A DNA stretch of 64,000 nucleotides. Origin: Acidimicrobiales bacterium. GTDB taxonomy: Bacteria; Actinomycetota; Acidimicrobiia; Acidimicrobiales; Palsa-688. A model generated the notes under the pieces. It ran no database searches. It saw only the letters and a program-made list of their open reading frames with translations, and was not told where the DNA came from. This document shows positions 19,560 through 59,856 of this stretch, one piece after another (positions within the stretch are counted from its first letter, which is position 1; each line of letters starts with the position of its first letter). Where the stretch lies: positions 61 through 64,060 of the forward strand of contig DATLUM010000012.1 in the NCBI GenBank assembly GCA_035533095.1, in the 5' to 3' direction. A program made the translations under genes and the position numbers.

Positions 19560-19689
19560 AGCCCAGCCGGACCAGCGCTATGTCCACTTCCTCCCCCCCC
19601 ACGGTGTAGACATTCCGGGTGTGACAACGGTGCCGGAGGGTGCCGAGGCGGAGACCGGTCCGGCCGCTACGACCGGTCCGGCAGCTGGT

Positions 19690-20085
19690 GAGCGAAGCCG
19701 AGGCGCTGCGCTTCCTGCCGCAGAAGGCGATGCTGCGGTTCTCCAACTTGATGCTCTGCGAGGAGGAGAACCGCTCGATCGAGCGGTTCTGCACGGCGGT
19801 GGTTGCGGTGGTCCGTCGGGGCGGCATGGCGCAGGTCGCCTTCGCCTCGGCGGGGCACCCCCCCCGGCGATGGTGCGCCGCGCCAGCGGTATCGTCGAGG
19901 AGTTGCCGGCGACGGGTATCACGCTCGGTGTCGTCGACGACCTAGGCGGAAAGGCGCAGAGGTTGACGCTGGAGAAAGGCGACTTGATGGTGATGCACAC
20001 CGATGGTCTGACGGAGGTGCGCGACTCAGCCGGGACGTTCTACGGCGAGGAACGGCCGGCAGGCGTCATCGAGCGGGACAAATGA
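19690..20085 (+). pseudogene. decayed SpoIIE/PP2C-type phosphatase domain (internal deletion plus frameshift in a C8 run)
   Basis: ERFCTAVVAVVRRGGMAQVAFASAGHPP is in one frame and continues as PAMVRRASGIVEELPATGITLGVVDD...GDLMVMHTDGLTEVRDSAGTFYGEE in another frame after the C-run 19858-19865. The metal-binding GGDxYD region is missing. Confidence 0.65.
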
Positions 20086-20229: not shown

Positions 20230-21378
20230 TTGGTGACCAACGCGGTCCTCCACGCCGGAACGGAGATCGAGCTCAGAGTGTGGGCGATGGGTGGCCGGGT
20301 GCACGTCCGTGTCCTCGACGAGGTTGCCACCCGTTTGCCGATCCCTCACGAGCAGGCCGCTGAGGCTGGCACCGGGCGCGGGCTGCACATGGTCGAGCAT
20401 CTCTCAGCAGCTTGCGGTGTCGAGGTCTCTCCTGGGGGAAAGACGGTGTGGTTCGAGTTGTGGCCCAGCGAGACCGACTTGAAGCCTGGCGCGACCTGGA
20501 CGGTTCCCGGCCCCGCTGCGGGCCAGGGAGTAACCGTGACTCTGGTAGATGTGCCGGTCGGTCTTTCTCTCGCGGCGCAGCGTCATCGTGCGGCTCTGCT
20601 GCGCGAGGCACGCCTGATTGTCATGTCGGGACGCAGCACCGTAGGTGTGCGAACCTCCGATATTCGCGACGTCGCCGGGCTCAACGACATGCTCGATTCC
20701 GCCCTGAGCCGGGCGATGTCACGGGATCCGACCGCGTCGACGCTGTCGCTCAAGGTCGACATGCCTCGTGGCTGCGGCCCCGTGGCACTCCGTCTTTCGG
20801 AAGTGATCGACGTGTTGAACGGCGCAGCCCGGTCCGGCCAGCTGTTGACTCGTCCGTCCCTGCCCGAGGTGCGCAGTTTCCGCATGTGGATGTTGAGCGA
20901 GGTCGCCAACCAGCTGGACGGGCGACCCCCGTCGCGGTGGGTCGGCCAGCACAGCCTCACGCACCGTGCTGCCCCGGAGGATCGCACGGAATACGACCCC
21001 GCCGACGTCCACGCCCGCGCAGTCCCGGCGGTGGCAGCCGATGACGACAACTCCATACTGGCGGTCAACGAAGCAGCCGTGGCGTTGCTGGGATGGAAAC
21101 CCGAGGATCTCATCGGCGAGAGGGTCACGGTCATCATCCCGCCGGAGTGGAGGGAACGCCACGTCGCCGGGTTCACGAACTTCCTGCTGACGGGAGAGGC
21201 CACCATCATCGGAAAGTCGACCCTCGTGCCCGCCTTGCACCGGGATGGCACGACGGTCGACGTGTTCCTCAAGATCGACGTCGAGCAGTCCCGCAACGGG
21301 CGAACGGTGCTCGTGGCGGAGTTGGAACCCGCGGCGTCGGATACCGGCCTGGCCGAGCTGGCGGAGCGGGCGTCTTAA
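20230..21378 (+). CDS. RsbW-like HATPase (anti-sigma/serine kinase) domain protein with a C-terminal PAS domain; N-terminus unresolved
   Basis: LLTSELVTNAVLHAGTEIELRVW...GTGRGLHMVEHL...GGKTVWFEL, and C-terminal PAS (ILAVNEAAVALLGWKPEDLIGERVTVIIP). Homology continues upstream to the in-frame TGA at 20083-20085 without an ATG/GTG/TTG. Confidence 0.7.
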   Translation: MVTNAVLHAGTEIELRVWAMGGRVHVRVLDEVATRLPIPHEQAAEAGTGRGLHMVEHLSAACGVEVSPGGKTVWFELWPSETDLKPGATWTVPGPAAGQGVTVTLVDVPVGLSLAAQRHRAALLREARLIVMSGRSTVGVRTSDIRDVAGLNDMLDSALSRAMSRDPTASTLSLKVDMPRGCGPVALRLSEVIDVLNGAARSGQLLTRPSLPEVRSFRMWMLSEVANQLDGRPPSRWVGQHSLTHRAAPEDRTEYDPADVHARAVPAVAADDDNSILAVNEAAVALLGWKPEDLIGERVTVIIPPEWRERHVAGFTNFLLTGEATIIGKSTLVPALHRDGTTVDVFLKIDVEQSRNGRTVLVAELEPAASDTGLAELAERAS

Positions 21379-24450: not shown

Positions 24451-24861
24451 CTAATCCGACCTGACCAGAGTCACCGAAGACTGCACTGCTCGGACTATAC
24501 GGTCAGGAAGCTGTTCGAGATCACCTGGCAGCACGAGGTAGTCGGCGGCGCCTTCGGCGAGGCAGGCGTGCCGCAGGTAGATCGCATCGGTCCGTGAGAC
24601 CACCACGAGCACAGGATGCCTCGGGGATGAGCGCAGGTGCGACATCACACCCAGGATCCCGCGGCCTGCGATCGATACATCCACGACCGCTGCGTCGAAG
24701 ACGGCTGGGCAGGCGACGACGGCCTCACCGTCGGTGGCCTGGGCGACCATCTCGAATCGCCGGTCATGGCCGACTGAGGAGCAGAGAAGCTTTCGCAGAT
24801 GCGTGTCCGTGGATCCCACCAGCACCCTGATCCTCTGGGTCGGATGGTGAGCATCTTCCAT
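24451..24861 (-). CDS. stand-alone receiver-like domain protein (atypical: acidic pair and conserved Lys missing)
   Basis: IRVLVGSTDTHL...AAVVDVSIAG...VLVVVSRTD...ADYLVLPGDL aligns to a CheY-like fold. DD is replaced by ST and K by L. No output domain. ATG 24861 chosen inside the 225-aa ORF. Confidence 0.65.
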   Translation of the reverse strand: MEDAHHPTQRIRVLVGSTDTHLRKLLCSSVGHDRRFEMVAQATDGEAVVACPAVFDAAVVDVSIAGRGILGVMSHLRSSPRHPVLVVVSRTDAIYLRHACLAEGAADYLVLPGDLEQLPDRIVRAVQSSVTLVRSD

Positions 24862-24919
24862 GAGGCCACTCTGCAGCGTCGGGGTGGATGAGTCTCGATA
24901 CCGAGAGTCACTCTCCGGT

Positions 24920-24933
24920 GGGCCGAAGGTCAC
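24920..24933. promoter_or_regulatory. DosR-box-like palindrome, 1 mismatch: GGGCCGAAGGTCAC
   Basis: 59 nt upstream of the receiver gene start. Same left half and centre as the box at 25421. Confidence 0.4.
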
Positions 24934-24962
24934 ATTGTCCTTCGATTCTCGTTTCCCTGCGG

Positions 24963-25385
24963 CTAGTCGGATTCGAGGGCCGGGTCGACCGCGGCGTAGG
25001 CACCCAACAGGTCCCTGACGGAGACCACGCCCGTCAAGCGGCCGGAATCCTCCACCAGGACGTGCCTCACGTATTGGTCCATCATCTCTTCGGCGACCTC
25101 CGCGACGGTCGCGGTCGCGTCGGCCCATGCGATCTCCGTGTGCGCGACTTCGGAGGCGGTGGTATCCCTCGGGTCGCGGCCGGAGCCGATCGCTCTGACC
25201 AGGTCACGTTCCGACACGATGCCGGACGGCTCGGCGCTTGCCTCGTTGCGGACGATGGCTGCGCCCACTTCTGCGTCGGCCAAGGTGCGCGCGACCTCCA
25301 CCAGCGACGCGTCAGGGGCTACCCACACGACGCTCTCCGAGACGAGCGTGGAAATGGGCATCGACCCGACACTGATCTCCGTCAT
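24963..25385 (-). CDS. CBS domain pair protein
   Basis: Two CBS repeats (VVWVAPDASLVEVARTLADAEVGAAIV...GIVSERDLVRAI; IAWADATATVAEVAEEMMDQYVRHVLVED...GVVSVRDLL). ATG 25385 lies within the longer ORF. Confidence 0.85.
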   Translation of the reverse strand: MTEISVGSMPISTLVSESVVWVAPDASLVEVARTLADAEVGAAIVRNEASAEPSGIVSERDLVRAIGSGRDPRDTTASEVAHTEIAWADATATVAEVAEEMMDQYVRHVLVEDSGRLTGVVSVRDLLGAYAAVDPALESD

Positions 25386-25436: not shown

Positions 25437-25838
25437 TTGCCGGCTCTCCACTCGGAGGGAGAATCGGTCATCCACCTTGTGAGGTCGGACGAAGGAGTGG
25501 ACAATGTCGAGGGTTGCACTGATGAGGGAACCCAGCCCGAAGCTGGCAGATGGCATCGTCACATGATCGAGCGCGAGCCTCTTGACGTGGCGCTGGCGGC
25601 GGCCCTGGTTGCCCGCCCCGGCGCCCCCTCGAGGCGGGCGGAGGTGCCCTCGACTGAATCCGGGGCCCATGTGGTCGACCTCGGTGGCGGGAGGATTCTC
25701 ATGGCGGTGGACTGCCCGAAGAGCGCGGAGATACTCGCCGATCTGGGTTACGAACCTGTGACGGTCGACATCTCGGAATTCGAGAAGCTCGAGGGATGCG
25801 AGGTGATTCGATGTCGACCGGCCGGCCTTCCTCTCTGA
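25437..25838 (+). pseudogene. C-terminal remnant of an amidinotransferase-superfamily gene (DDAH/arginine deiminase-like)
   Basis: GAHVVDLGGGRILMAVDCPKSAEILADLGYEPVTVDISEFEKLEGC resembles the last strands of DDAH-type enzymes. No N-terminal two-thirds is present. Overlaps the ATPase start. Confidence 0.4.
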
Positions 25839-28120
25839 TTCTGGGGTCCGCACTGGCCTTACTGGCTGCCGGTGCCATCGCGCATGCCGCCGGAGCACCC
25901 GGCCCGGGCGACGACATCTGGATGGCTGCCGGAGCCGTCGGCGCCGCCGACGCTCTGTGGGCGATGGTGAGTGGTCTGCGAGCCGGCCGTTTGGGCGTCG
26001 ATGTGATCGCGCTGTTGGCCGTCACCGGCGCCTTGGCTGTCGGCGAATACCTGGCGTCCGGCGTGATCGGTGTGATGGTCACCAGCGGCCGCTTCCTCGA
26101 GGACTGGGCAGAGGGTCGTGCTCGTCGTGATCTGCGCGCCCTCGCCGACCGGGCACCCCGGAGCGCTCACCGTTACGAAAACGGGGGGTTACGGACCGTC
26201 GAAGCGGGCCTCGTGCGTCCGGGAGATCGGCTGATGGTCCGCTCAGGAGAACTGGTCCCGGCTGACGGCAATCTCCTGTCCAGTGCGGTCCTGGACGAGT
26301 CGAACTTGACGGGAGAGTCGAGGCCGGTGGAGCGAGCATCCGGCGAACCCGTACGCAGCGGGGTGGTCAACGTCTCCTCTCCTTTCGACCTTGCGGTGAC
26401 AGCAAGGGCGTCCGAGAGCGCTTATGCCTCCATAGTCAGACTTGTATCCGCAGCCGAGTCTTCTCGCGCTCCTTTCGTCCGCCTTGCGGACCGCTATGCG
26501 AATTGGTTCCTCGGGCTCAGCCTGCTCGCCGGGGGCGCTGCGTGGATGGTCGCCGGGGCGGAGCGAGCTGTGGCGGTCCTGGTAGTCGCAACGCCGTGCC
26601 CGCTGATTCTCGCTGCACCCATAGCTCTGGTTGCCGGGCTGTCACGCGCGGCGCGGCGTGGCGTCGTGATCAAAGGCGGAGGGGTACTCGAGCGGCTGGC
26701 GCGCTGCACCACCCTCCTCATCGACAAGACCGGGACCTTGACGAGTGGGCATCCGGTGCTGGTGGACGTCGTCACGGCGGGGTCCATGGATCGCGACCAG
26801 GTGTTGGGCATGGCGGGATCCCTGGATCAGGTATCGGCACACGTGCTCGCCCACGCTGTCGTCCAAGCGGCCAGGGAGCGAGGTATGGACCTGGTGATCC
26901 CGAGCCGGGTCGAGGAAGTGCCGGGCAGGGGCATTAGAGGCGACGTCGGCGGGAAGCAGGTTTCCTTGGGAAAGGCCAATTGGGTCGGTCTGACGGGCAA
27001 TCCGTCGTGGGTGAGGTCGGCCCGCCGGCGGGCAAGGCTGGATGGGTCGATAACGGTATTCGTATCGGTCGACGACCAACCTGCTGGAGTCCTGCTCCTC
27101 GAGGACCCCGTACGCGTCGATGCCACCAGAACCATCCGGTCGTTGCGGCACAGCGGCATCAGCCGGATAGTCATGGTGACCGGCGATCGGGCCGAGGTGG
27201 CTGAAAGCGTTGGGGCCGCAATCGGAGTCGACGAGGTTCTCGCCGACCGAGCTCCGGAGGACAAGCTTGACGCTGTTCGCTTGGAGAGGCGGAATGCACC
27301 GACGATGATGGTTGGTGACGGGATCAATGACGCGCCTGCCCTGGCGCTGGCCGATGTCGGGGTAGCGATGGGATCGCGTGGTGCGACCGCTTCGTCGGAG
27401 GCAGCCGACGTGGTGCTGACCGTGGACCGGATCGACCGTTTGGGTGAAGCCCGGCACATCGCCCACAGGTCGCGAGTTCTCGCTATCCAGAGCGTCGTCG
27501 CCGGGATGGTGATGTCCCTGGTCGCCATGGGAGTCGCCGCCATGGGGTTTCTGCCGGCGGTGTGGGGTGCCTTTCTCCAAGAAGGCATCGATGTCGCCGT
27601 CATTCTCAACGCTCTCAGGTCAATGGCTCCGGCCAAGTCGGAAATCGTTCTGAACTCCGAAGACAGCCTCTTGACCCGGCGCTTCCGCGATGAACACGTA
27701 CAGATTCGGGAGTCGATAGATCGGGTCCGGTCGATAGCTGACTCTCTCGGCGACATCGGAGCCGATGAGATTCGCGACAGGGTCCGCGAGGCATACCGCC
27801 TGCTCAGCGAGACGGTTTGGCCCCACGAGGCGGCAGAACAGGAGATCCTGTATCCAGCTCTCGAGCGCATCCTCGGAGGGAGCGATCCGACCGGTCCCAT
27901 GAGCCGAGCACACATTGAAATCGCCCACCAGATCCGCCGGCTCGGACGGCTGATCGATGAGATCGGCGCTGACGCGCCCGATGGACAGGAGGTAGAAGAG
28001 ATCAGAATCCTCCTTTACGGGTTGTACGCGATCCTGCGGCTGCACACCAGCCAGGAAGACGAGAGCTACCTGTCGCTCGCGGATGACACCGAGCTGCTGA
28101 GCGCGGGAAGTCGCGAATAG
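25796..28120 (+). CDS. P1B-5-type heavy-metal P-type ATPase with a C-terminal hemerythrin-like domain
   Basis: TPCP in the TM helix (VVATPCPLILAAP), DKTGTLT, GDGINDAPAL and QEGID in the last TM. No N-terminal HMA domain. The C-terminal ~150 aa carry H/E motifs (WPHEAAEQEILYP, HIEIAHQ, LHTSQEDE). Confidence 0.85.
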   Translation: MRGDSMSTGRPSSLILGSALALLAAGAIAHAAGAPGPGDDIWMAAGAVGAADALWAMVSGLRAGRLGVDVIALLAVTGALAVGEYLASGVIGVMVTSGRFLEDWAEGRARRDLRALADRAPRSAHRYENGGLRTVEAGLVRPGDRLMVRSGELVPADGNLLSSAVLDESNLTGESRPVERASGEPVRSGVVNVSSPFDLAVTARASESAYASIVRLVSAAESSRAPFVRLADRYANWFLGLSLLAGGAAWMVAGAERAVAVLVVATPCPLILAAPIALVAGLSRAARRGVVIKGGGVLERLARCTTLLIDKTGTLTSGHPVLVDVVTAGSMDRDQVLGMAGSLDQVSAHVLAHAVVQAARERGMDLVIPSRVEEVPGRGIRGDVGGKQVSLGKANWVGLTGNPSWVRSARRRARLDGSITVFVSVDDQPAGVLLLEDPVRVDATRTIRSLRHSGISRIVMVTGDRAEVAESVGAAIGVDEVLADRAPEDKLDAVRLERRNAPTMMVGDGINDAPALALADVGVAMGSRGATASSEAADVVLTVDRIDRLGEARHIAHRSRVLAIQSVVAGMVMSLVAMGVAAMGFLPAVWGAFLQEGIDVAVILNALRSMAPAKSEIVLNSEDSLLTRRFRDEHVQIRESIDRVRSIADSLGDIGADEIRDRVREAYRLLSETVWPHEAAEQEILYPALERILGGSDPTGPMSRAHIEIAHQIRRLGRLIDEIGADAPDGQEVEEIRILLYGLYAILRLHTSQEDESYLSLADDTELLSAGSRE

Positions 28121-35940: not shown

Positions 35941-38046
35941 TCAAGGTCCGGGGTGCCTGGCCTCGTGCGGCGCCTTGCCCATGGTCTGGTGATCTCGACG
36001 TCCCCGGACGTCTCCCGTCGGCACCGGCTGCAGAGTCCGTCGTGGAGAGCTGCCGTCTCCCGGCAACGTTCGCACGGCCGTGCCTGCCGCTTGTGACTGC
36101 TCCACCATGGCGACATCTGATTCCTCCTCTGTATGCCCTTCATGCCCTTCCACTAAGGACAGCGGCTCTACTTCTGTCAGGATCCGCTCGATATCCGGCC
36201 GATCCAGAGATTCCTGCTCGATGAGCGCAGATGCGATGGCGTCCAGTGCCGGTCGATGCATGGCTAGAACGTTCTTCGCCCGTTGCGCCTGTTCGGAAAG
36301 GATCCGTTCGATCTCGATGTCGATTACCCTCGCTGTCTCGTCCGAGTAATCGCGGGAGTGGACGAGGTCCTCGCCGAGGAACACGGGTCCCATCGGTCCC
36401 CACGCCATGTTGCCGATCCGCTTCGACATTCCCCACTCCCGAACCATGCGGCTGGCGAGCTCAGTGGCGGATACGAGGTCGTCCTGGGCTCCCGTCGAGG
36501 GAATGCCGAATACCACCTCTTCCGCTGCGCGCCCGCCGAGGCGGACTGCCAGAGCATCCTGGAGGTATGGCAACTGCTCGATTTGCCTCTCTTCAACCGG
36601 CAGCTGCTGTGTGGCACCGAGAGCCATGCCTGTCGGAAGGATGCTCACCTTGTGCAACGGGTCGGCGTGGGGCAGCAGGTGAGCCAGCAGGGCGTGGCCG
36701 GCCTCGTGGTAGGCGACGATTCGCTTCTCCTCCCGGCTGAGCACCACAGAGGTGCGGCGCAGTCCGACCAGTACCCGCTCACGGGCGGAATCCAGATCGA
36801 CCGTCTCTATCCGGTCGCTCCCGCGTCTGACGGCGATCAGGGCGGCCTCGTTGACAAGGTTCTCGAGATCCGCTCCGCTCATCCCGGGGGTCCCCCGCGC
36901 CAAGGCGTCGAGCCGGACGTCGGATCCCATCTGCTTCCCGCGGCAGTGCACCCCCAGGATGGCGGTCCTCTCATCGAGGGTTGGCAGCGGTATGACCACC
37001 TGGCGATCGAACCGTCCCGCCCGCATGAGGGCTGGATCGAGTATGTCTGGCCGGTTGGTTGCAGCGAGCAGGATGATTCCCTCCTGGCCTTCGAAGCCGT
37101 CCATCTCCGACAGCAACTGGTTCAGGGTCTGCTCGCGTTCGTCGTGGCCACCTCCGAGACCCGCCCCGCGCTTGCGCCCGATGGCGTCGATCTCATCCAC
37201 GAAGATGATCGCCGGCTTGTTCTGGCGTGCGGTCTCGAACAGGTCGCGGACGCGAGCGGCGCCGACTCCCACGAACATCTCCATGAACTCAGAGCCCGTG
37301 ATCGTGATGAAGGGAACACCGGCTTCTCCGGCGATCGCCCGGGCGAACAGTGTCTTGCCGGTTCCGGGTGGGCCGACAAGCAGTACACCTTTGGGGATTC
37401 GCGCGCCGATCGCTCTGAACTGGTTGGGCTCCTTCAAGAAGCGGACGATCTCACCGAGTTCTTGCTTCACCGCCTCGTAGCCGGCTACGTCATCGAAGGT
37501 CGTCGAGGGCCGATCCGTCACGTGCACTTTTGCCTTCGAACGCGACCAGCCCGACAAGCCGCCCAGAGATTTCTGGGCGCGGCGTGACATCCACACGAAG
37601 AAGAGCGCGATCAGCCCGAGTGGGAAAACCCACATCAGGATGCTCGACCACAGACTGCCGGAGCTGCTGGACGTGGCATAGCTGCGTTGCACGTGGTGAC
37701 TGTCCAGCAGAGTCAGGTCGGATTCGGGCAGGCCGCCCGGCGGCCCCTGCGCGGTGAACTTCTTGCCGTCGAGGAAGGTCCCGTCGATCTTGCCGCTGGA
37801 CTGGTTGATCTCGACGGATTTCACCTGGCCGTTCGCAACGTCGGAGAGTAGGGCCGAGTAGATGAGTTTCGTCGGCTGGGGCGCCGGCGTCGAAGTCGCG
37901 CCCACATAGGCGGTGAGCCCGATGAGCAGCAGGGTGAACGCCACGAGGGCTGCTCTTCCAACCCCGGAGCGTTTCTTCTGGGGTGGCTCCGGCCCTTCGG
38001 AGATCGGAGCGTTCCACCTGGACTGGTCGGGCGGCAGGAGCGTCAT
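35941..38046 (-). CDS. ftsH: ATP-dependent zinc metalloprotease FtsH (paralogue-like context)
   Basis: GPPGTGKT Walker [10 protein letters not shown] Walker B, HEAGHAL zinc site. ATG 38046 forms an ATGA overlap with the upstream small ORF. The ORF track extends to 38166. Confidence 0.9.
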
Positions 38047-38333
38047 CGGTCGTGCCCGGCGGGATGCGCGGGCCCGTCGAGGGCCGCGCGCAGCAGCGGG
38101 AGCGCCCGCTGCAGACCGGCTTCGACCGGCTGGGATGAACCGAATCGCGGGACCAAGGCCTCGCACTCAGCGAGGATCTGCTCGTCGGTCAGCCCTGACT
38201 TGACGAACACGGCCGCGAGATGGACGAGCTCTCTCGCCGTGCCCGAGGCCCGGGCGACCGATTCGAAAATCTCGGCATTCGCCTCGACCCAATCCTCGAG
38301 GTCTGTCACCGCAGCGGACTTCGGCTCTGTCAC
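38043..38333 (-). CDS. hypothetical 96-aa helical protein translationally coupled to ftsH
   Basis: GTG 38333. The stop overlaps the ftsH ATG (ATGA). Coding-like composition. Confidence 0.5.
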   Translation of the reverse strand: MTEPKSAAVTDLEDWVEANAEIFESVARASGTARELVHLAAVFVKSGLTDEQILAECEALVPRFGSSQPVEAGLQRALPLLRAALDGPAHPAGHDR

Positions 38334-38369
38334 GACCCCAGCCTGCGGCCGAGACGCTCCAGGCGACTA

Positions 38370-38383
38370 GGGCCGAACGCCCC
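38370..38383. promoter_or_regulatory. DosR-box-like palindrome GGGCCGAACGCCCC
   Basis: Fits GGGNC-NWWN-GNCCC. 37 nt upstream of the small-ORF/ftsH operon start. TA flank on the left. Confidence 0.5.
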
Positions 38384-38512
38384 GAAATCCCACTTTCACC
38401 TCGATCGTCGTCAGCGCGAGCCGCCGCCGGACAAAGGGACGTTGGGCCCTATCGGAGCGGGGCTCCGAGAGCGAACCTTGAGATCAGGACCACAGTTGTC
38501 ACGGAGGCGAGA

Positions 38513-38806
38513 ATGGCCACGCCCGGGTTGGAAATTGTCGTACGGAGTGCCATCAGGGCGTTGAGAGAGGAGGCCCGCACTCGGGCAGCCTCGGTGGAGT
38601 CCGAGAGCGAGGATCACGCCTTCTACGGCGGAGTCATGGCAGCGACAGACGACCATCTGCATCTCGAGAATCTTCCGGTTCACGGTGACAGCTGGCTGTC
38701 GCGCCAGCCGGCTGCGTTCGCGGACGGTTACACGAAGACCGCCATCTTGATTGCGAGCGCCGGATCGGACCCGCCCCACCGGTTCCGGCTGCCGGCCCGT
38801 GACTAG
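38513..38806 (+). CDS. hypothetical 97-aa protein
   Basis: High third-position GC by manual count. No recognised domain. Its stop overlaps the stop of the convergent sensor gene (CTAG). Confidence 0.4.
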   Translation: MATPGLEIVVRSAIRALREEARTRAASVESESEDHAFYGGVMAATDDHLHLENLPVHGDSWLSRQPAAFADGYTKTAILIASAGSDPPHRFRLPARD

Positions 38807-40374
38807 CCGAGAGGTTCTCGGTTCGTGTCGGATGACAGCTCGAAGATCGTGTTGCGGATATCCCGGATCGCGGTATCGATGGCTTGTACCGCTGCCGACA
38901 CCATCTCGTTAGCCTCGCTGTAGGAGATGAGACGCATGGATCCCTGCAGTTGAAGGCCCGCGGCGAACAAGTTGTGTATGACCTGGCTGTAAAGGTTTCG
39001 CGCGATGCGGTCCCTGTCGGTCAGCAGGAGCATCTCCTGCTTCCGCCGCTGGGCTCCGTCCAGTTCGAAGGCCAGGGCTGCCTGAGCTGCCAAGGCTTCC
39101 GCCAGCAACCGTACGGCCGGTTCGAACTCTCGGGCGCCGGCAGGCCGGACGAATGTCAGGGCTGCGGAGGGGGAGCGGCCTTCCGCAGACACGATCGGGA
39201 CACCGAACGTCGGTCCGCCCGGCATGTCGTCGGGGACTTCCGCGTTCGAGATCTCGCTGCGTGTGTCCGCTTCGAGAGGATGGCCGGACTCGATCACTTT
39301 CTCTGCGAAAGACCGACCTTGGGGGAGCACCGAGCCAACGAGCGTGGAGGCCGGTCCTGACCCGGCGACCACCCGGGTTGTATCGTCGCGTCTGATGCAG
39401 ATGGCCGCCACGGGCGCATCTACCAACTCGGACGCCCGCTCGCAGATGAGCGTCAGGCACCCCTCCAGCGTGGTCTCGGAAAGCAAGGCGAGCCTGATTT
39501 CCGCCGAGGCAGCGTAGCCCCGCTGCAGGCGTTCCTCTTCCTGAAGGAGCCTGTTCAACTCTCGCTCTACACGCTTGCGCTCCGAGACGTCGCGAAGGAT
39601 CGCCGAGAAGCCGCGCAGCCTGCCGGTCTGGTCCTCGAGCGGCGACACGGTGATCTCGACATTGATCGCCTTCCCAGCGCGATCGCGCCACCTGGTGTCC
39701 CTGGCAGCGACCTGGACTCCTCGGGACGCGGCATCTAGGAGCTCCTCGAGGGCAAGGGACTCCTCCGCGGGAACCAGGACCGAGATGTGCTGGCCGATGA
39801 TGTGGTCGACGGAGTAACCCAGCAGAGTCTGCGCCGCGGGGTTCCAACTGGAAATGTGCCCGTCGAGGGTGGTCGACACGATCGCGTCAAACGACGAGCG
39901 CACCAGCGTGGCGAGCTCCGCCTGCACCGCCTGGGCGCGCATCTGCTCGCTCATGTCCCGAATCCCCGCTATCACCAGCTGCCCAACGGCAGTGTCGATT
40001 GGCGCGAGGCTGATGTCCACAGGAATCTCGGTTCCGTCGAAGCGGCGCCCGCTGAGCTCGAGCCCTGCTCCCATGGCACGCGGCTCGGCGGCGGCGGTGA
40101 AGGACACCCGGTGCCCTCTGTGGCGGCTCCGTCGCCGCTCGGGCACCAGCGCCTCCATGGGATTGCCGGTGAGCGACCCTGGCGGGTAGCCGAAGAGGCG
40201 CTCCGCCTGCTCGTTGGCCAAGACGATCACACCGTCTCCGCCCACAGCCACCGCGGCATCGGGGATGAGGGACATGACCGCGCCGAGCAACTCCGGCTCG
40301 GCTCGTCGCGAGCCCCTGTCGAACCCGGCGAACGCGCCCGTTTTATCCCCTTGGAGGTGTTCGGGCTCGTTCAT
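38803..40374 (-). CDS. PAS-PAS-GAF-HisKA_3 sensor protein lacking the phospho-acceptor His and lacking any HATPase domain
   Basis: Two PAS modules and a GAF module, then DRDRIARNLYSQVIHNLFAAGLQLQG, which aligns with the DosS/DosT H-box RDRIARDLHDHVIQRLFA.GL.LQG but has Y for H. The ORF stops ~50 aa later. ATG 40374 has a GAGGGTGG SD-like sequence upstream; the ORF track starts at 40455. Confidence 0.8.
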   Translation of the reverse strand: MNEPEHLQGDKTGAFAGFDRGSRRAEPELLGAVMSLIPDAAVAVGGDGVIVLANEQAERLFGYPPGSLTGNPMEALVPERRRSRHRGHRVSFTAAAEPRAMGAGLELSGRRFDGTEIPVDISLAPIDTAVGQLVIAGIRDMSEQMRAQAVQAELATLVRSSFDAIVSTTLDGHISSWNPAAQTLLGYSVDHIIGQHISVLVPAEESLALEELLDAASRGVQVAARDTRWRDRAGKAINVEITVSPLEDQTGRLRGFSAILRDVSERKRVERELNRLLQEEERLQRGYAASAEIRLALLSETTLEGCLTLICERASELVDAPVAAICIRRDDTTRVVAGSGPASTLVGSVLPQGRSFAEKVIESGHPLEADTRSEISNAEVPDDMPGGPTFGVPIVSAEGRSPSAALTFVRPAGAREFEPAVRLLAEALAAQAALAFELDGAQRRKQEMLLLTDRDRIARNLYSQVIHNLFAAGLQLQGSMRLISYSEANEMVSAAVQAIDTAIRDIRNTIFELSSDTNREPLG

Positions 40375-40493
40375 GAACCCACCCTCTCGGCCGTGAACAT
40401 CGACCGCCCGGTGGCGGTGCCCCAATGGTATCTGCGGCCTTGCTGTAGCGGGCACCTGTTTCTGACAGTCAGATCAGGACCGGGAGGAGACTC

Positions 40494-41579
40494 TTACGCG
40501 GCTCTCCGCAGCCAGGAGCCGACATCGTCGACGACGAGAACGCCCACGACTCTGCCCTCCTCGACGACCGGCAGGACCCGGTAACCACTGCTGAGCAGAA
40601 GGTCGAGCGCCGAGCGCCCGAGATCGTCGTTCGGGCCGAGGACGGGAACGCTCCGGTCAGCCAGATCCCCCACCACCTCCTGCGAACCGGCAGGGTCGAT
40701 TTCCGACGTGTCAATCATGCCGTAGTACAGCCCGTCGCGGGTCACGACCTGAGGTCCCCGCCACCATCGCGCCAGGCTTTCGACCGGCTGCCCGGCATCG
40801 ACGGTCGTCACTGGCGAGCGCATGAATTGGCGCACGGCGTGACCGCGGAGGCGGCTGTGAACGGCGGCCAAGTTCTCCTCCTGGGTGGCAGCCAGGTAGA
40901 CGACCACACCGATCACGATCAACCAGAGGTTCCAGAAGATTCCGACAATCACCATCGCGACGCCCAGTCCCCGCCCGAACCGCGCCGCCGTACGGGTTGC
41001 CTGACCGACATCGCCGCGCCTCTCCAGCAGGGCTCGCAGGACGCGCCCCCCGTCGAGCGGGAACGCCGGGAGCAAGTTGAACAACCCCAGGACCAGGTTC
41101 AGCCAGGCCAGCCGCGGTAAGAGCGCGCCACCGTAGATGTTCACCGGCAACAGGCTCCTTCCGCTCGCAAGGGCAGCGACCGCTGCCACGACGGCAAGCA
41201 AGAGGCTGACGAGCGGACCTGCCCCAGCGATCTCGAGCTCGTCCTGCCAGGCGTCGGGCATCTTCTCGATCTGCGACACGCCACCGATGGGCAGCAGGAT
41301 GATCGAGTTGACTACGAGACCTTTCGAGCGGGCAACGACGCTGTGAGCGAGCTCGTGCAGGAGGACGCACCCGAATATCACGGCCAACCACAGGAGCCCG
41401 TCGCGGACACCGAGCCCGCCCGGCTGAGACTCGGCGACGGCGAACAGAGCCACCAGCACGAAGAAACTGACATGCACGGCTATCCGGATCCCGGCGATCC
41501 TCCCGAGAGGGATCGACCAGCGAAACGGCTTCCGGTTCCGCGATGCGGACATGGTAAGAGTGTGGCCCTCAGGGGCCAC
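40494..41579 (-). CDS. site-2 protease (peptidase M50) with a C-terminal CBS pair
   Basis: HELAHSVVA zinc motif, LLPAFPLDGGRVL, then CBS repeats. An alternative ATG start is at 41552. Confidence 0.85.
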   Translation of the reverse strand: MAPEGHTLTMSASRNRKPFRWSIPLGRIAGIRIAVHVSFFVLVALFAVAESQPGGLGVRDGLLWLAVIFGCVLLHELAHSVVARSKGLVVNSIILLPIGGVSQIEKMPDAWQDELEIAGAGPLVSLLLAVVAAVAALASGRSLLPVNIYGGALLPRLAWLNLVLGLFNLLPAFPLDGGRVLRALLERRGDVGQATRTAARFGRGLGVAMVIVGIFWNLWLIVIGVVVYLAATQEENLAAVHSRLRGHAVRQFMRSPVTTVDAGQPVESLARWWRGPQVVTRDGLYYGMIDTSEIDPAGSQEVVGDLADRSVPVLGPNDDLGRSALDLLLSSGYRVLPVVEEGRVVGVLVVDDVGSWLRRAA

Positions 41580-41588
41580 GTTTGGATA

Positions 41589-41602
41589 GAGCCGGATGAC
41601 CC
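41589..41602. promoter_or_regulatory. degenerate DosR-box-like site GAGCCGGATGACCC with TA flanks
   Basis: One half-site mismatch and a GA centre. Lies in the divergent gap between the S2P gene and the APH/P-loop gene. Confidence 0.3.
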
Positions 41603-41638
41603 TAGCGCTCTCGTGGCGGTCGAACGAAGGCTTGAATC

Positions 41639-43168
41639 GTGCACCGTGACACGCGGGATCCGTTCGCGGGAGTGATCGAAACCCACTCCGGGGTCGTCTT
41701 CTTCTTGGGGGACAGGGCCTACAAGCTCAAGAAGCCCGTCGCCTTCGGGTTCCTGGACTTCACGCAACCCGAGGTTCGGCGAGTCGTTTGTGAACGCGAG
41801 GTCGAGTTGAACTCGCGACTGGCCCCCGACGTCTACCTGGGTGTCGCGAACGTTCTCGGCCCGGACGGTTCGCCGTGCGAGCACCTCGTCGTCATGAAGC
41901 GGCTCCCCGATGAGCGGCGCCTGTCTGTCCTCGTCGGCAGCAACGCACCAGTCGAAGCTCTTCTCCGACAAATTGCCGGTGTATTGGCAACGTTCCACAA
42001 CAAGGCCCGGCGCTCTCCTGAGATCGACGCCTGCGCGACCGCTCCCGCCATGCTCGAGCGGTGGCGGGCCAACAAGCGCGAGATGGAGCCGCTGAGCGGC
42101 CAGATCTTCGACTCCGAGATCATGGAGCGGGTCGACTCCTTGGCACGGCGCTATCTCGCCGGTCGAGAAGCACTCTTCGCCTCACGGGCGGCCACCGGAC
42201 GGGTCTGCGACGGGCACGGCGATCTCCTGTGTGACGACATCTTCTGCCTCGACGACGGCCCGCGCGTCCTGGACTGCGTCGAGTTCGACGATCGCCTTCG
42301 CTATATCGACGTACTCGGAGACATCGCCTCGCTCGCGATGGATCTCCAACGTCTCGGCCGCCCCGACCTCGGCCGGCTCTTCCTACAGCAATACGGCGAC
42401 GCTTCGGGCGACGGATGGCCTGACTCTCTCGCTCACCACTACGTCGCGTACAGGGCGCAGGTGCGTTCCATGGTGGCCGGCCTGCGATATGGGCAAGGTG
42501 ATACCGAGTCCGCCGCGGAAGCGCGCGGTCTGCTTGCGATATCTGCGCAACATCTCGAGGAAGGCCGGGTTCGCCTCGTCGTGATCGGTGGACTTCCCGG
42601 CACCGGCAAGTCCACCTTGGCGCTCGAAGTCGCCAACGCCATACGAGGGACCAGGATCCGGTCGGACGAGATCCGCAAGAGGCTCGCAGGAATGACGCCC
42701 ACCACGCCCGCTCCGGCGTCGATCGGCGAGGGCATCTACTCGCCTGCGATGACCCGCTCCACCTACGACGCGCTGATCGAAGGAGCCAGATCGCACCTGC
42801 GGTTCGGCCGCAGTGTGGTGCTCGACGCCACCTTCGCGGAGCCCAGCTGGCGGACTGCCGCGCAGACCCTTGCAGACGAAACATCGGCCGACCTGCACGA
42901 GTTTCGATGCGTGGCACCGATGCAACTCATCGAGGAACGCCTATCGGGGCGGGCCAGTGTTCGCACCGCATCCGACGCGACCGCCGATGTGGCCCACCAC
43001 ATGGCCCGCTCCCAGCGGGCTTGGCCCACGGCGGCCGAGGTGGACACCACCCGGGGTATCGCCGAGACCTCTGCCGCTGTCCTGGACTTGATGGGGGTGG
43101 GCATTCGACGAGGCCCTTTGCCGGTCGGCTCGGGACGAAGGGCCCTACCACCGGAAACGTCTGAATGA
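41639..43168 (+). CDS. bifunctional aminoglycoside-phosphotransferase-like / P-loop kinase (AAA_33-like) protein, Rv2004c-like architecture
   Basis: N-terminal APH-like fold (VCDGHGDLLCDDIF, LDCVEFDD) and a C-terminal P-loop (GGLPGTGKSTLA). Confidence 0.8.
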   Translation: MHRDTRDPFAGVIETHSGVVFFLGDRAYKLKKPVAFGFLDFTQPEVRRVVCEREVELNSRLAPDVYLGVANVLGPDGSPCEHLVVMKRLPDERRLSVLVGSNAPVEALLRQIAGVLATFHNKARRSPEIDACATAPAMLERWRANKREMEPLSGQIFDSEIMERVDSLARRYLAGREALFASRAATGRVCDGHGDLLCDDIFCLDDGPRVLDCVEFDDRLRYIDVLGDIASLAMDLQRLGRPDLGRLFLQQYGDASGDGWPDSLAHHYVAYRAQVRSMVAGLRYGQGDTESAAEARGLLAISAQHLEEGRVRLVVIGGLPGTGKSTLALEVANAIRGTRIRSDEIRKRLAGMTPTTPAPASIGEGIYSPAMTRSTYDALIEGARSHLRFGRSVVLDATFAEPSWRTAAQTLADETSADLHEFRCVAPMQLIEERLSGRASVRTASDATADVAHHMARSQRAWPTAAEVDTTRGIAETSAAVLDLMGVGIRRGPLPVGSGRRALPPETSE

Positions 43169-58574: not shown

Positions 58575-59855
58575 ATGAACGCTTCGCTGTCCTCTTTCAA
58601 CGTCCAATCAGAGGTCGGAATCCTGCGCAAGGCTGTCGTGCACAGACCGGGGCTGGAATTGGCCCGTCTCAGTCCCAGCAATGTTGGCAGCCTTCTCTTC
58701 GACGACGTGCTCTGGGCGAAGCGCGCCCGTGACGAGCACGACTCGTTCTGCGACACCTTGACGCAAAACCGTGTCGAGGTCCTCTACTTCGAGCAGCTGT
58801 TGGCGGAGACGCTGGACACACCCGAGGGCCGGTCATTCGTGATCGATCGGATCTGCACGCCGGAGGTTGTCGGGCCTGCTCTCGTCCGCGCGTTGCGGAC
58901 CCTCTCCGAGGGGGTGGACGGGAAGACACTCGCCACCTATCTCATCGGCGGGGTGCTGAAATCGGATCTCCATCCTCGCCTGCAGGTCGCCTCGTCGGGC
59001 CTCGGTCGCGACGAGGAGGGGTGGTCCGCGTCCGTGCAGGGCCTCACATGGGACGTGCTCGGTGACGACGACTTCGTGCTCCCGCCGTTGCCGAACCATC
59101 TGTTTCAGCGCGACAACTCGGCCTGGATCTACGGGGGTGTCTCGGTGAACCCGATGGCAAAGGCGGCGCGCCAGCGCGAATCACTCCACAGCACGGCGAT
59201 CTACCGGTACCACCCGATGTTCAAGGACGCCCGGTTCGAGTTCTGGTACGGCGGTGACGACACCGACCACCTGCCGGCTTCTGTCGAGGGCGGTGACATA
59301 CACGTCATCGGCAACGGTGCCGTTCTCATCGGCATTGGCGAGAGGACTACGCCAGCAGCCGTCGAGATCCTCGCCGGTTCGCTGTTCGCGAAGGGGGCCG
59401 CCTCCCAAGTGATCGCCGCCGAGCTCCCGCGCTCGAGGGCGTTCATGCACCTCGACACCGTCATGACGATGGTCGACTCCGACGCGTTCGTCGTGTACCC
59501 GTACCTCGATCCGTCGCTGCGGGCGTGGAGGCTCACACCGGCAGAGGGAGGCACTCTTACGGAGCGGCTGCCCGACCTGTGGGAAGCGCTGGCCGGCGCG
59601 CTCGATGTCGAGAAGATCCGGTTGCTGTCCGCAGACGAAGATCTGCGGGCCGCCGAGAGGGAGCAGTGGGACGACGGCACCAACTTCCTGGCCGTGGCTC
59701 CCGGGGTCGTCGTCGGATACGAGCGCAACGTGACCACCAATACCATGCTGCGCCGGGCCGGCATAGAGGTGATCACCGTCCCCAGCAGCGAGCTCGGCCG
59801 GGCGCGCGGCGGCCCGCGGTGCATGACCTGCCCCCTCGAGCGGGATCCGGTCTGA
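58575..59855 (+). CDS. arcA: arginine deiminase
   Basis: N-terminal [13 protein letters not shown], and [10 protein letters not shown] with the catalytic Cys near the C-terminus. 426 aa. Confidence 0.9.
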
Positions 59856-59856
59856 G

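What the first reader, a model, noticed from the sequence alone, without database searches (positions are those of the whole stretch)
38803..41579. DosS/DosT-like sensor with Tyr replacing the phospho-acceptor His and no ATPase domain, in an apparent operon with a CBS-containing site-2 protease
The PAS-PAS-GAF protein ends in a DHp helix, DRDRIARNLYSQVIHNLFAAGLQLQG. This aligns residue for residue with the DosS/DosT H-box (RDRIARDLHDHVIQRLFA.GL.LQG), but the His is Tyr. The ORF terminates about 50 aa later, without any HATPase_c domain.

I translated all three minus-strand frames downstream (38411-38802) and found no ATPase remnant. Instead, a convergent ORF with coding-like GC3 occupies that space.

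The gene lies 38 nt downstream of the M50-CBS protease on the same strand. Two readings are possible. It may be a decayed kinase. Alternatively, it may be a phosphorylation-independent sensor that signals by DHp heterodimerisation or together with regulated intramembrane proteolysis.
Basis: partly seen in the sequence, partly recalled or inferred. Interest (0 to 1): 0.7.

Follow-up and report, generated by a model that had tools for sequence, protein, structure and literature searches.

The report
Conserved kinase-dead, ATPase-less heme-PAS sensor
An uncultured soil actinobacterium (Acidimicrobiales) keeps under selection a likely oxygen-sensing protein descended from a histidine kinase that has lost its ATPase domain and all phosphotransfer residues, so it probably signals by binding partners rather than by phosphorylation.

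Summary
The gene at 38803-40374(-) encodes PAS-PAS-GAF-HisKA_3 and ends right after the second DHp helix. Tyr sits at the phospho-acceptor position, there is no HATPase_c, and no ATPase remnant lies downstream.

It is not a decaying pseudogene.
- About 88 relatives (43-58% identity) are full kinases with His and an ATPase domain.
- A syntenic orthologue in another species (L013, 73% identity) has the same truncation and Gln at the His position.
- Window versus L013: dS 1.02, dN 0.18, omega 0.175.
- All 68 near-invariant sensor-domain residues are kept. The His and both residues of the DxxxQ phosphatase motif are replaced.

The Tyr is incidental. The codons (TAC and CAG against family CAC) suggest that the His was lost twice, after the truncation.

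"DosS/DosT-like" applies only to the DHp class, because the first PAS is a FixL-type heme PAS. The link to the site-2 protease is lineage-specific. Close relatives of the protease run M50-orf96-FtsH without the sensor, which sits with a conserved convergent 97-aa gene in a 2.1-kb extra segment. The surrounding island resembles the mycobacterial DosR regulon and is enriched in DevR-box-like palindromes.

Most likely it is a gas-sensing histidine pseudokinase acting through its DHp.

The parts
38803..40374 (-). Sensor gene (523 aa plus stop): PAS-PAS-GAF-DHp histidine pseudokinase, deposited as HVA73300.1. An alternative upstream GTG at 40455 would give 550 aa.
   Evidence: ORF and domains. Start supported. 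Exact match to the NCBI MAG protein. Omega 0.175 against the L013 orthologue.
39955..40296 (-). PAS-A (residues 27-140), a FixL-type heme-PAS. The proximal-His equivalent is His85 (RSRH).
   Evidence: Gapless alignment to FixL heme domains (8js5 E 3e-19; also 1dp6, 1xj4), to DosP, and to the NCBIfam FixL model. All 34 near-invariant family residues are kept.
39565..39927 (-). PAS-B (residues about 150-270).
   Evidence: Pfam PAS, PAS_9, PAS_4 and PAS_3. 24 of 24 near-invariant residues kept. Omega 0.13.
39121..39564 (-). Coiled-coil linker and GAF domain (residues 271-418).
   Evidence: Pfam GAF_3/GAF. AlphaFold2 helix 264-298 followed by a GAF fold. 10 of 10 near-invariant residues kept.
38830..39054 (-). 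HisKA_3 DHp helical hairpin (residues 441-515), complete but catalytically degenerate. The protein ends 8 residues later.
   Evidence: Pfam HisKA_3 profile positions 2-65 of 68. AlphaFold2 helices 419-480 and 486-515. 16 of 22 near-invariant residues kept. Omega 0.19.
38941..39018 (-). Degenerate H-box DRDRIARNLYSQVIHNLFAAGLQLQG. Changes are D460N, H462Y (TAC, 38989-38991), D463S and Q467H, so the His and the DxxxQ phosphatase motif are both lost.
   Evidence: The role of the DxxxQ motif is taken from PMC3510030.
40375..40493 (-). 119-nt leader between the M50 stop and the sensor ATG. It is non-coding, hypervariable between strains, and carries no DevR-like box.
   Evidence: 7 of the 27 differences between the window and L007 fall in this stretch. 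Shine-Dalgarno sequence. No terminator-like site anywhere in 37900-41800.
38392..40491 (.). 2.1-kb segment (leader, sensor, orf97) that is present in this lineage and in L013 but absent from the otherwise syntenic M50-orf96-FtsH loci of the nearest relatives.
   Evidence: Homology to L009, L010 and L011 breaks at 40492-40510 (40492 in L010) and resumes at 38346-38391 (38391 in L010). Gene maps.
38513..38806 (+). orf97, a conserved 97-aa gene convergent with the sensor and overlapping it by 4 nt. Predicted helical, no known family.
   Evidence: Orthologue P0393 on L013 at 71% identity and the same length. Omega 0.19. No Pfam family above threshold. No PDB fold match.
38370..38449 (.). Two DevR/DosR-box-like palindromes (38370-38383 and 38436-38449) in the divergent region between orf96 and orf97.
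   Evidence: The pattern GGGNCNWWNGNCCC occurs 10 times in the window against 0.54 expected. The same two-box layout is found in L013.
40494..41552 (-). Upstream same-strand gene: M50 (site-2 protease) with a C-terminal CBS domain.
   Evidence: Pfam Peptidase_M50 and CBS. Orthologues at 72-77% identity lack the sensor downstream.
38043..38333 (-). orf96, a conserved small gene whose stop overlaps the FtsH start (ATGA). In relatives it lies directly downstream of M50.
   Evidence: 64-70% identity in L009-L012. Omega 0.21.
35941..38046 (-). FtsH (AAA plus M41 protease), downstream of orf96.
   Evidence: Pfam families in the gene map. Sequence.

Best explanation
The gene encodes a cytoplasmic histidine pseudokinase that probably senses a gas or redox signal through heme.

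**Origin.** It descends from an Acidimicrobiales family of orphan kinases with the architecture FixL-type heme-PAS, PAS, GAF, HisKA_3, HATPase_c. An ancestor of this lineage and of L013 lost the whole ATPase domain and the DxxxQ phosphatase motif. The phospho-acceptor His then became dispensable and was replaced, by Tyr here and by Gln in L013.

**What is shown.** The three sensory domains and the DHp dimerisation hairpin have been kept under purifying selection. The protein cannot autophosphorylate because it has no ATPase domain. It lacks the canonical phospho-acceptor His, and it lacks the residues that HisKA_3 kinases use to dephosphorylate their regulator.

**What is inferred.** It still dimerises through the DHp. 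It passes the state of its heme-PAS, PAS and GAF input on by protein-protein contact. The most likely contact is a dead heterodimer with a full-length paralogue, or titration of that paralogue's response regulator. A partner lacking both His and ATPase would silence a mixed dimer whether autophosphorylation runs in cis or in trans. The effect would be to modulate a DosR-like hypoxia or stress regulon, in whose gene island the gene sits.

**Partners.** The conserved convergent small gene orf97 is part of the same module and may encode a partner.
For: **Architecture and truncation:**

**Family comparison.** Eighty-eight full-length family members (at least 595 aa) all have His and about 195 aa from the H-box to the C-terminus. 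In an exhaustive search of 1.84 billion representative proteins, all 148 best relatives of the DHp have His.

**Not an assembly artefact.** The stop codon and the Tyr are the same in five independent assemblies.

**Orthologue.** L013 carries the same truncation and gene order, with Gln at the His position.

**Selection.**
- Omega is 0.175 overall (pS 0.557, pN 0.158). By domain it is 0.14 (PAS-A), 0.13 (PAS-B), 0.17 (GAF) and 0.19 (DHp).
- Within the population there are 7 synonymous and 4 non-synonymous polymorphic codons (binomial p = 0.01).
- 68 of 68 near-invariant sensor-domain residues are kept, against 16 of 22 in the DHp (Fisher p = 1e-4). The losses cluster at D460, H462, D463 and Q467.

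**Order of events.** The codons are TAC (window), CAG (L013) and CAC/CAT (family). This fits independent loss of the His after a shared truncation.

**Heme-PAS:**

**Phosphatase motif.** The DxxxQ motif is required for HisKA_3 phosphatase activity (PMC3510030).

**Context.**
- The island holds Usp, Hsp20, Pyridox_ox_2, APH/AAA_33, M50-CBS, CBS-BON, DUF1918, P-type ATPases, and arginine deiminase with carbamate kinase.
- The DevR-like box occurs 10 times against 0.54 expected. The DevR half-site GGGACT and the regulon members Rv2625c, Rv2004c, Rv0080 and ctpF are taken from PMC3177182.
- In the neighbour-joining tree, the sister group of the window+L013 pair is three full-length kinases (P0015, P0027, P0031). 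P0027 lies among Usp, CBS, ADH, DUF1918 and Pyridox_ox_2 genes.

**Precedents for pseudokinase signalling:** DivL (PMC4211667), PsmA (PMC12963549) and the RetS-GacS DHp heterodimer (PMC8498467).
Against: - No partner has been identified. The window holds no full-length paralogue and no NarL/DosR-type regulator, and the rest of the MAG could not be searched.
- Heme binding is inferred from alignment only. The residue aligned with FixL Arg220 is Leu across the whole family.
- Only two lineages carry the module, so the clade is small and rare.
- The stem branch leading to the window and L013 is long (0.218, above the 95th percentile of internal branches). That fits either neofunctionalisation or a period of relaxed constraint.
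- One family-invariant Asp (D39) is polymorphic (Gly) in two assemblies.
- Heterodimerisation between histidine kinases is generally uncommon.
Confidence: 0.55

Rival explanations
1. Decaying pseudogene: a kinase recently broken by a rearrangement, still open by chance and without function.
For: All family members at 58% identity or less are full kinases with His. The ATPase domain is entirely missing. The H-box carries four changes at invariant positions. The gene lies in a lineage-specific 2.1-kb segment.
Against: An orthologue at dS about 1 keeps the same 523-aa-type reading frame and the same end point, with omega 0.175. 68 of 68 sensor-domain invariants are kept. Polymorphism is biased towards synonymous changes. 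Mean identity of the sensor region to the family is typical (0.522 against 0.528).
Confidence: 0.03
2. Proteolysis-coupled sensor. The protein works with the flanking M50-CBS site-2 protease, with orf96-FtsH, or with both. It could gate intramembrane or AAA proteolysis according to oxygen, or it could itself be a regulated substrate.
For: The gene is on the same strand between M50-CBS and orf96-FtsH. The gap is 119 nt and no terminator-like site was found anywhere in 37900-41800. The position next to orf96 is conserved in L013.
Against: M50 orthologues at 72-77% identity have no sensor. Family kinases are not linked to M50. The sensor has no predicted membrane segment in the AlphaFold2 secondary structure. 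The L013 contig ends before any M50 gene, so upstream synteny is unknown.
Confidence: 0.12
3. The sensor and orf97 form a two-gene signalling module. The small helical orf97 protein is the direct output partner, for example an adaptor or anti-adaptor released or bound according to the sensor's state. Two-component proteins would not be involved.
For: orf97 occurs only together with the truncated sensor, in both lineages and in the same convergent arrangement. It has omega 0.19. Two DevR-like boxes lie upstream of it in both lineages.
Against: Convergent genes are not co-transcribed. orf97 has no recognisable family or fold, and only one of five AlphaFold2 models was confident. Co-occurrence in two lineages is weak statistical support.
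Confidence: 0.15
4. The protein is still a phosphotransfer protein. Either the shared derived His467 (at the Q position of DxxxQ) or the Tyr would be phosphorylated in trans by a partner's ATPase domain or by a phosphorylated regulator. That would make it a sensor-regulated phosphotransferase in the manner of Spo0B or ChpT.
For: Q467H is shared by both orthologues. DHp-like bundles without a working ATPase can act as phosphotransferases (Spo0B and ChpT, from general knowledge).
Against: The canonical acceptor position varies (Tyr or Gln), so it is not used. The adjacent acidic residue needed for His phosphorylation chemistry is gone (Ser or Gly). Position +5 is about 140 degrees around the helix from the canonical position. 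One shared substitution may simply be inherited.
Confidence: 0.06

Closest known systems
DivL of Caulobacter crescentus, a histidine pseudokinase with Tyr in place of His (PMC4211667, PMC5361649)
   Same: It is a multi-PAS, kinase-like protein with Tyr at the phospho-acceptor position. It signals by protein-protein contacts rather than by phosphotransfer, binding DivK~P through the DHp/CA core and controlling CckA through its PAS domains.
   Different: DivL has a HisKA-type DHp and keeps a CA domain. Its Tyr is a fixed feature. Here the DHp is HisKA_3, the CA domain is deleted, and the residue is not conserved (Tyr or Gln). DivL has no heme-PAS. The two are not homologous at the level of orthology.
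Acidimicrobiales orphan kinases PAS(heme)-PAS-GAF-HisKA_3-HATPase_c, the parent family (e.g. P0002, P0003, P0027; NCBI name 'PAS domain S-box protein')
   Same: 43-58% identity over PAS-A to the end of the DHp. All 68 near-invariant sensor-domain residues are shared. The sister clade lies in a similar Usp, CBS, ADH, DUF1918 and Pyridox_ox_2 neighbourhood.
   Different: The family members have the His, the DxxxQ motif and a C-terminal ATPase domain of about 130 aa. The window protein has none of these.
FixL (Bradyrhizobium and Sinorhizobium) and E. coli DosP heme-PAS oxygen sensors
   Same: PAS-A aligns without gaps to the FixL heme domain, with the proximal His conserved.
   Different: FixL has a HisKA DHp, a CA domain and FixJ as partner. 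The residue equivalent to FixL Arg220 is Leu here. The output here is a dead HisKA_3 hairpin.
DosS (DevS) and DosT of Mycobacterium tuberculosis
   Same: They share the HisKA_3-class H-box. The resemblance to DRIARDLHDHVIQRLFA is recalled from memory by both readers and was not tested against a real DosS sequence. The genomic setting resembles the DosR regulon and carries GGGAC-type palindromes.
   Different: DosS and DosT sense through heme in a tandem GAF input, are active kinases and pair with DosR. Here the input is PAS-PAS-GAF with a heme-type PAS, there is no kinase chemistry, and the window has no DosR gene.
RetS of Pseudomonas aeruginosa (PMC8498467)
   Same: It is a kinase-like protein that controls a true kinase (GacS) by DHp-DHp heterodimerisation and not by phosphorylating a regulator. 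This is the mechanism proposed here.
   Different: RetS is a membrane hybrid protein with CA and receiver domains and a HisKA DHp. No heterodimer has been demonstrated for the window protein.
PsmA of Streptomyces (PMC12963549)
   Same: It is an actinobacterial, PAS-containing histidine pseudokinase that lacks the H-box His and the phosphatase motif and is conserved within a clade.
   Different: PsmA is a hybrid, HisKA-type protein that keeps CA and receiver domains and acts at the polarisome with DivIVA.

Membership tests
Functional HisKA_3 sensor histidine kinase | Phospho-acceptor His in DHp helix 1 | tested here: not met
   Tyr462 aligns with the His that is invariant in 88 family members and in all 148 best DHp relatives.
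Functional HisKA_3 sensor histidine kinase | C-terminal HATPase_c (CA) domain | tested here: not met
   No Pfam hit. The protein ends 8 residues after DHp helix 2. No remnant downstream by tblastn.
Functional HisKA_3 sensor histidine kinase | DxxxQ phosphatase motif next to the His | tested here: not met
   D463S and Q467H in the window; Gly and His in L013. Role of the motif from PMC3510030.
Functional HisKA_3 sensor histidine kinase | HisKA_3 DHp helical hairpin | tested here: met
   Pfam HisKA_3 at 29.4 bits, above the cut-off of 24, covering profile positions 2-65 of 68. AlphaFold2 helices 419-480 and 486-515.
Bacterial histidine pseudokinase (DivL, PsmA, RetS type) | Kinase-homologous core lacking the catalytic His | tested here: met
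Bacterial histidine pseudokinase (DivL, PsmA, RetS type) | Maintained by selection across orthologues rather than being a pseudogene | tested here: met
   Omega 0.175 against L013 at dS 1.02, with the same end point. Polymorphism 7 synonymous to 4 non-synonymous.
Bacterial histidine pseudokinase (DivL, PsmA, RetS type) | Experimentally shown absence of autokinase activity, and signalling by protein-protein interaction | not testable with these tools
   Needs biochemistry. Absence of an ATPase domain makes autokinase activity impossible in isolation.
FixL-type heme-PAS sensor | PAS fold with the proximal His on the F-alpha helix aligned to FixL His200 | tested here: met
   Gapless phmmer alignment to 8js5, 1dp6 and 1xj4, with RSRH aligned to RSRH. 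NCBIfam FixL model 80 bits over positions 122-250.
FixL-type heme-PAS sensor | Binds heme b and responds to O2, CO or NO | not testable with these tools
   Inference from alignment only. The residue equivalent to FixL Arg220 is Leu in the whole family.
DosS/DosT (DevS) sensor kinases | Tandem GAF input with heme in GAF-A | tested here: not met
   The architecture is PAS-PAS-GAF with a single GAF and a heme-type PAS.
DosS/DosT (DevS) sensor kinases | Active HisKA_3 plus HATPase_c core paired with a DosR (NarL-type) regulator | tested here: not met
   No His and no ATPase domain.
Pseudogene | Neutral evolution (omega near 1), frame disruptions, restriction to a single strain | tested here: not met

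The most novel reading that the evidence does not exclude
The protein is a natural DHp-only "anti-kinase". It would be a heme-based gas sensor that has shed every catalytic element. It would feed a second, independent oxygen, NO or redox input into a DosR-like dormancy regulon. It would do this either by forming dead heterodimers with the full-length heme-PAS kinase or by holding that kinase's response regulator. The gene may itself be switched on from within the regulon, which would give negative feedback. If so, signalling through a kinase dimerisation hairpin alone, without an ATPase domain, would be an evolvable and selected solution in bacteria, in a lineage (Acidimicrobiia) whose hypoxia signalling is uncharacterised.
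Probability: 0.35. Interest if true: 0.7.

Novelty: new variant of a known kind. Interest (0 to 1): 0.55.

Why it matters
Only a handful of bacterial histidine pseudokinases are known (DivL, RetS, PsmA), and all of them keep an ATPase-like domain. This is a clear natural case in which a multi-sensor kinase was cut back to "sensor plus dimerisation hairpin" and then kept by selection through a speciation event.

The order of events can be read from the codons. The truncation and the loss of the phosphatase motif came first. Independent loss of the now useless His followed.

The protein gives a testable model for how kinase paralogues turn into regulators of kinases. It also points to a DosR-like, heme-PAS-controlled hypoxia regulon in uncultured soil Acidimicrobiales. 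It can be expressed in a heterologous host for heme spectroscopy and interaction tests.

There is a practical lesson too. Annotation pipelines call the protein "PAS domain S-box protein", and the sequence could easily be dismissed as a pseudogene. A check of syntenic orthologues reverses that call.

Tried and rejected
- **ATPase remnants downstream.** Translation of the three minus-strand frames and tblastn with ten homologous CA domains at E<100 found nothing in 38000-38900.
- **Paralogues or a DosR-type regulator in the window.** tblastn found only an unrelated PAS hit at 21028-21363 and no NarL-type regulator.
- **Palindrome CTGACAGTCAG in the leader.** It is not enriched; 13 of 100 shuffles do as well.
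- **Mycobacterial-style pattern GGGACNNNNGTCCC with 2 mismatches.** It is not enriched as written (76 found against 90 expected). The relaxed core GGGNCNWWNGNCCC is strongly enriched.
- **Promoter and terminator scans of 37900-41800.** No sites were found, so the operon structure remains open.
- **Other His-less relatives.** The exhaustive DHp search found none.
- **More orthologues of the module.** The metagenome scan returned only the same species (L014). The genome scan with orf97 returned nothing. The genome scan with the clade-specific motif QVIHxLFAAGL gave two chance matches, in Oscillibacter and in Frigoribacterium; the Frigoribacterium match was read and is not a kinase, while the Oscillibacter match was not examined.
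- **orf97.** It has no Pfam or NCBIfam family. Its AlphaFold2 model is a helical bundle that is confident in only one of five models, and no PDB fold match has E<1.
- **Locating the window's own MAG record.** The look-up failed, so paralogues and regulators elsewhere in the genome could not be examined.
- **Repeats flanking the 2.1-kb segment.** No convincing target-site duplication or terminal inverted repeats were found.

Full report
**1. What is in the sequence**

The minus strand carries an ORF at 38803..40455. Pfam finds two PAS domains, a GAF domain and a HisKA_3 DHp domain. The HisKA_3 hit scores 29.4 bits against a cut-off of 24 and covers profile positions 2-65 of 68. There is no HATPase_c. 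The DHp helix reads DRDRIARNLYSQVIHNLFAAGLQLQG, with TAC (Tyr462 in 523-aa numbering) at 38989-38991.

An AlphaFold2 model built on 67 sequences has mean pLDDT 87.6. It shows PAS-A, PAS-B, a coiled-coil linker and a GAF domain. These are followed by one long helix (419-480), a turn, a second helix (486-515) and an 8-residue disordered tail. The protein therefore ends exactly at the end of the DHp hairpin.

The three downstream frames and tblastn with ten homologous ATPase domains show no ATPase remnant.

The likely start is the ATG at 40374, which is preceded by GAGAGGGTGGG. It is the start chosen by gene callers on two sister contigs. The 119 nt between it and the M50 stop codon carry 7 of the 27 differences between the window and one sister strain, which is not how coding sequence behaves. 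The gap to the protease gene is therefore 119 nt. It is 38 nt only if the GTG at 40455 is used.

**2. The sensor is FixL-like, not DosS-like**

PAS-A aligns without gaps to the Bradyrhizobium FixL heme domain (8js5, E 3e-19; also 1dp6 and 1xj4) and to E. coli DosP. The proximal-His motif RSRH is conserved. The DosS/DosT label fits only the HisKA_3 class of H-box. DosS and DosT have a tandem GAF input (own knowledge). I could not compare with a real DosS sequence.

**3. Relatives**

The window protein is HVA73300.1, from an Acidimicrobiales MAG. Its 88 full-length family relatives are 43-58% identical and 595-708 aa long. Every one has DR[ED]RI[AG]RDLHD.[VIA] and about 195 residues from the H-box to the C-terminus, with HATPase_c.

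An exhaustive HMMER search of 1.84 billion representative proteins with the last 112 residues found only the protein's own cluster at E<1e-30. All 148 other best hits have His. The family kinases are orphans in varied neighbourhoods. In the neighbour-joining tree, the sister group of the window+L013 pair is three full-length kinases (P0015, P0027, P0031). One of them, P0027, lies among Usp, CBS, ADH, DUF1918 and Pyridox_ox_2 genes.

**4. It is not a pseudogene**

(a) The truncated, Tyr-bearing gene is present with the same stop codon in five independent assemblies at 99.7% nucleotide identity or more. There are 11 polymorphic codons, 7 synonymous and 4 non-synonymous. That gives dN/dS of about 0.2 and a binomial p of 0.01.

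(b) The only database homologue of the convergent 97-aa ORF led to a 2.2-kb Logan contig, L013. L013 carries orf96, orf97 and a sensor orthologue in the same arrangement. The sensor orthologue is 73% identical over 485 residues and ends at the equivalent position (IFELAPSPQSDRPD*). Its H-box is DRDRIARDLQGQVIHSLFAAGLELQG, so it has Gln where the window has Tyr.

(c) Nei-Gojobori estimates for the window against L013 are dS 1.02, dN 0.178 and omega 0.175 over 493 codons. By domain, omega is 0.14 (PAS-A), 0.13 (PAS-B), 0.17 (GAF) and 0.19 (DHp).

(d) At columns that are at least 95% conserved in the family, the window protein keeps 34/34 (PAS-A), 24/24 (PAS-B) and 10/10 (GAF), but only 16/22 in the DHp. 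No true kinase scores lower in the DHp, and Fisher's exact test gives p = 1e-4. The losses are D460N, H462Y, D463S, Q467H, L499I and T502A.

D463 and Q467 form the DxxxQ motif that NarX-type HisKA_3 kinases need for phosphatase activity (PMC3510030). Kinase, phosphotransfer and phosphatase chemistry are therefore all gone.

(e) The mean identity of the sensor region to the family is ordinary (0.522 against 0.528). The stem branch leading to the window and L013 is long, at 0.218, above the 95th percentile of internal branches.

**5. Order of events**

At position 462 the codons are TAC (window), CAG (L013) and CAC/CAT (family). Each derived codon is one step from CAC and two steps from the other. 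The simplest history is that the common ancestor, already truncated, still had His and that the His was lost twice.

At position 463, GAC to GGC (L013) to AGC (window) suggests that the Asp was lost before the split. Q467H (CAG to CAC) is shared. The Tyr is therefore incidental. This differs from DivL, where Tyr is the fixed state.

**6. Genomic setting**

M50-CBS orthologues at 72-77% identity lie in the same island: Hsp20, Pyridox_ox_2, APH/AAA_33, M50-CBS, orf96, FtsH, CBS-BON, ADH, Usp, a receiver and Usp. In those genomes only about 64 nt separate M50 from orf96.

Homology to the window breaks at 40492-40510 (40492 in L010) and resumes at 38346-38391 (38391 in L010). The leader, sensor and orf97 (about 38392-40491, 2.1 kb) are therefore an extra segment in the window and L013 lineages. 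An insertion is the most parsimonious reading, but loss in the relatives cannot be excluded. No flanking repeats were found.

orf96 is conserved and overlaps the FtsH start by ATGA. orf97 is a genuine gene with omega 0.19 but no known family or fold. The proximity to the site-2 protease is thus a derived feature of one small clade, and its functional meaning is open.

**7. A DosR-like regulon**

The island also holds further Usp genes, DUF1918, two P-type ATPases (one fused to hemerythrin), arginine deiminase with carbamate kinase, and ADHs. Many of these parallel members of the M. tuberculosis DevR regulon, namely hspX, the Usp genes, Rv2625c, Rv2004c, Rv0080 and ctpF (PMC3177182; PMC8131098). 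The matching of each gene to its counterpart is from my own knowledge.

The palindrome GGGNCNWWNGNCCC resembles the DevR half-site GGGACT. It occurs 10 times in the window against 0.54 expected, and no shuffle of 100 reached 10. Most copies are in intergenic regions upstream of these genes.

Two copies lie between orf96 and orf97, at 38370 and 38436. The same two-box layout is conserved in L013. No copy lies in the sensor leader.

**8. Mechanism**

Shown:
- The protein cannot autophosphorylate.
- It has no canonical acceptor His.
- It lacks the residues needed for phosphatase activity.
- Its sensory domains and its DHp are under purifying selection.

Inferred:
- It binds heme.
- It dimerises through the DHp.
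- It transmits its input by contact, either as a dead heterodimer with a full-length paralogue or by binding that kinase's regulator. A partner lacking both His and ATPase would disable a mixed dimer whether autophosphorylation runs in cis or in trans.
- It thereby tunes the DosR-like regulon.

Precedents are DivL, RetS-GacS and PsmA.

Rivals, each given a lower probability:
- Coupling to M50 or FtsH proteolysis.
- A module of the sensor with orf97.
- Residual phosphotransfer through His467.
- A plain pseudogene, which is essentially excluded.

**9. Verdict**

The "decayed kinase" reading is rejected and the "phosphorylation-independent sensor" reading is supported. The site-2 protease operon idea and the DosS label are weak.

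This is a new variant of a known kind, the histidine pseudokinase. It is unusual in having no ATPase domain at all and a heme-PAS input. It is rare, being known from only two lineages of uncultured bacteria.

Noticed in passing
window 25421, 33040, 33883, 38370, 38436, 43132, 50968, 58445, 58507, 61743; one-mismatch copies at 24920, 31681, 33970, 44424, 44451: The DevR/DosR-box-like palindrome GGGNCNWWNGNCCC occurs 10 times against 0.54 expected. Most copies lie upstream of stress or anaerobiosis genes: Hsp20, DUF1918, CBS-BON, Usp, arginine deiminase, an S8 peptidase and an SDR. The boxes are also present in the syntenic loci L009-L013. This suggests a DosR-like regulon in Acidimicrobiales. 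No regulator gene was found in the window.
   Followed up: partly
window 24451-25128 (-): An atypical stand-alone receiver domain (Pfam Response_reg 25 bits, below the cut-off of 30.2). It is conserved as a 135-163-aa protein next to Usp genes (between CBS and Usp in L009, L011 and L012). The usually invariant Lys is replaced (YLVLP), so it may be a pseudo-receiver and a candidate partner of the sensor.
   Followed up: partly
window 40375-40493: The leader upstream of the sensor is a polymorphism hotspot. It has 7 differences in 119 nt against L007, while the 1572-nt sensor gene has only 4 and the 466-nt stretch downstream of the sensor (38337-38802) has none in any assembly.
   Followed up: partly
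window 38043-38333 (-) and 35941-38046 (-): orf96 is a conserved 96-aa gene of unknown family. It always lies immediately upstream of FtsH and overlaps its start by ATGA. It is present in all relatives (64-70% identity) and may be an FtsH-associated factor.
   Followed up: partly
window 19480-20085 (+) and 20230-21378 (+): A SpoIIE (PP2C) fragment is followed by an ORF that begins inside a HATPase_c_2 domain and ends with a PAS domain. This may be a frameshifted or rearranged gene of the PP2C and anti-sigma-kinase type.
   Followed up: no
window 25796-28120 (+): A P-type ATPase fused to a C-terminal hemerythrin domain (an O2- or iron-binding domain), next to a tandem-Usp gene. This adds to the oxygen-related character of the island.
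   Followed up: no
window 40258-40260 (codon 39 of the sensor): The D39G polymorphism changes an Asp of PAS-A that is invariant in the family (IPDAAV). Two of the three assemblies that cover this codon (L001, L007) have Gly. The window and L013 keep Asp.
   Followed up: no
window 41557-41574: An inverted repeat GTGGCCC-CTGA-GGGCCAC lies immediately upstream of the M50 start codon. Three strain polymorphisms (41565, 41566, 41572) fall within it. Relatives L009 and L010 have a DevR-like box upstream of M50 instead.
   Followed up: no
window 58575-60810 (+): Arginine deiminase and carbamate kinase genes (the anaerobic ATP-yielding ADI pathway) lie downstream of two DevR-like boxes. The same gene pair occurs in the island of relative L009.
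   Followed up: no
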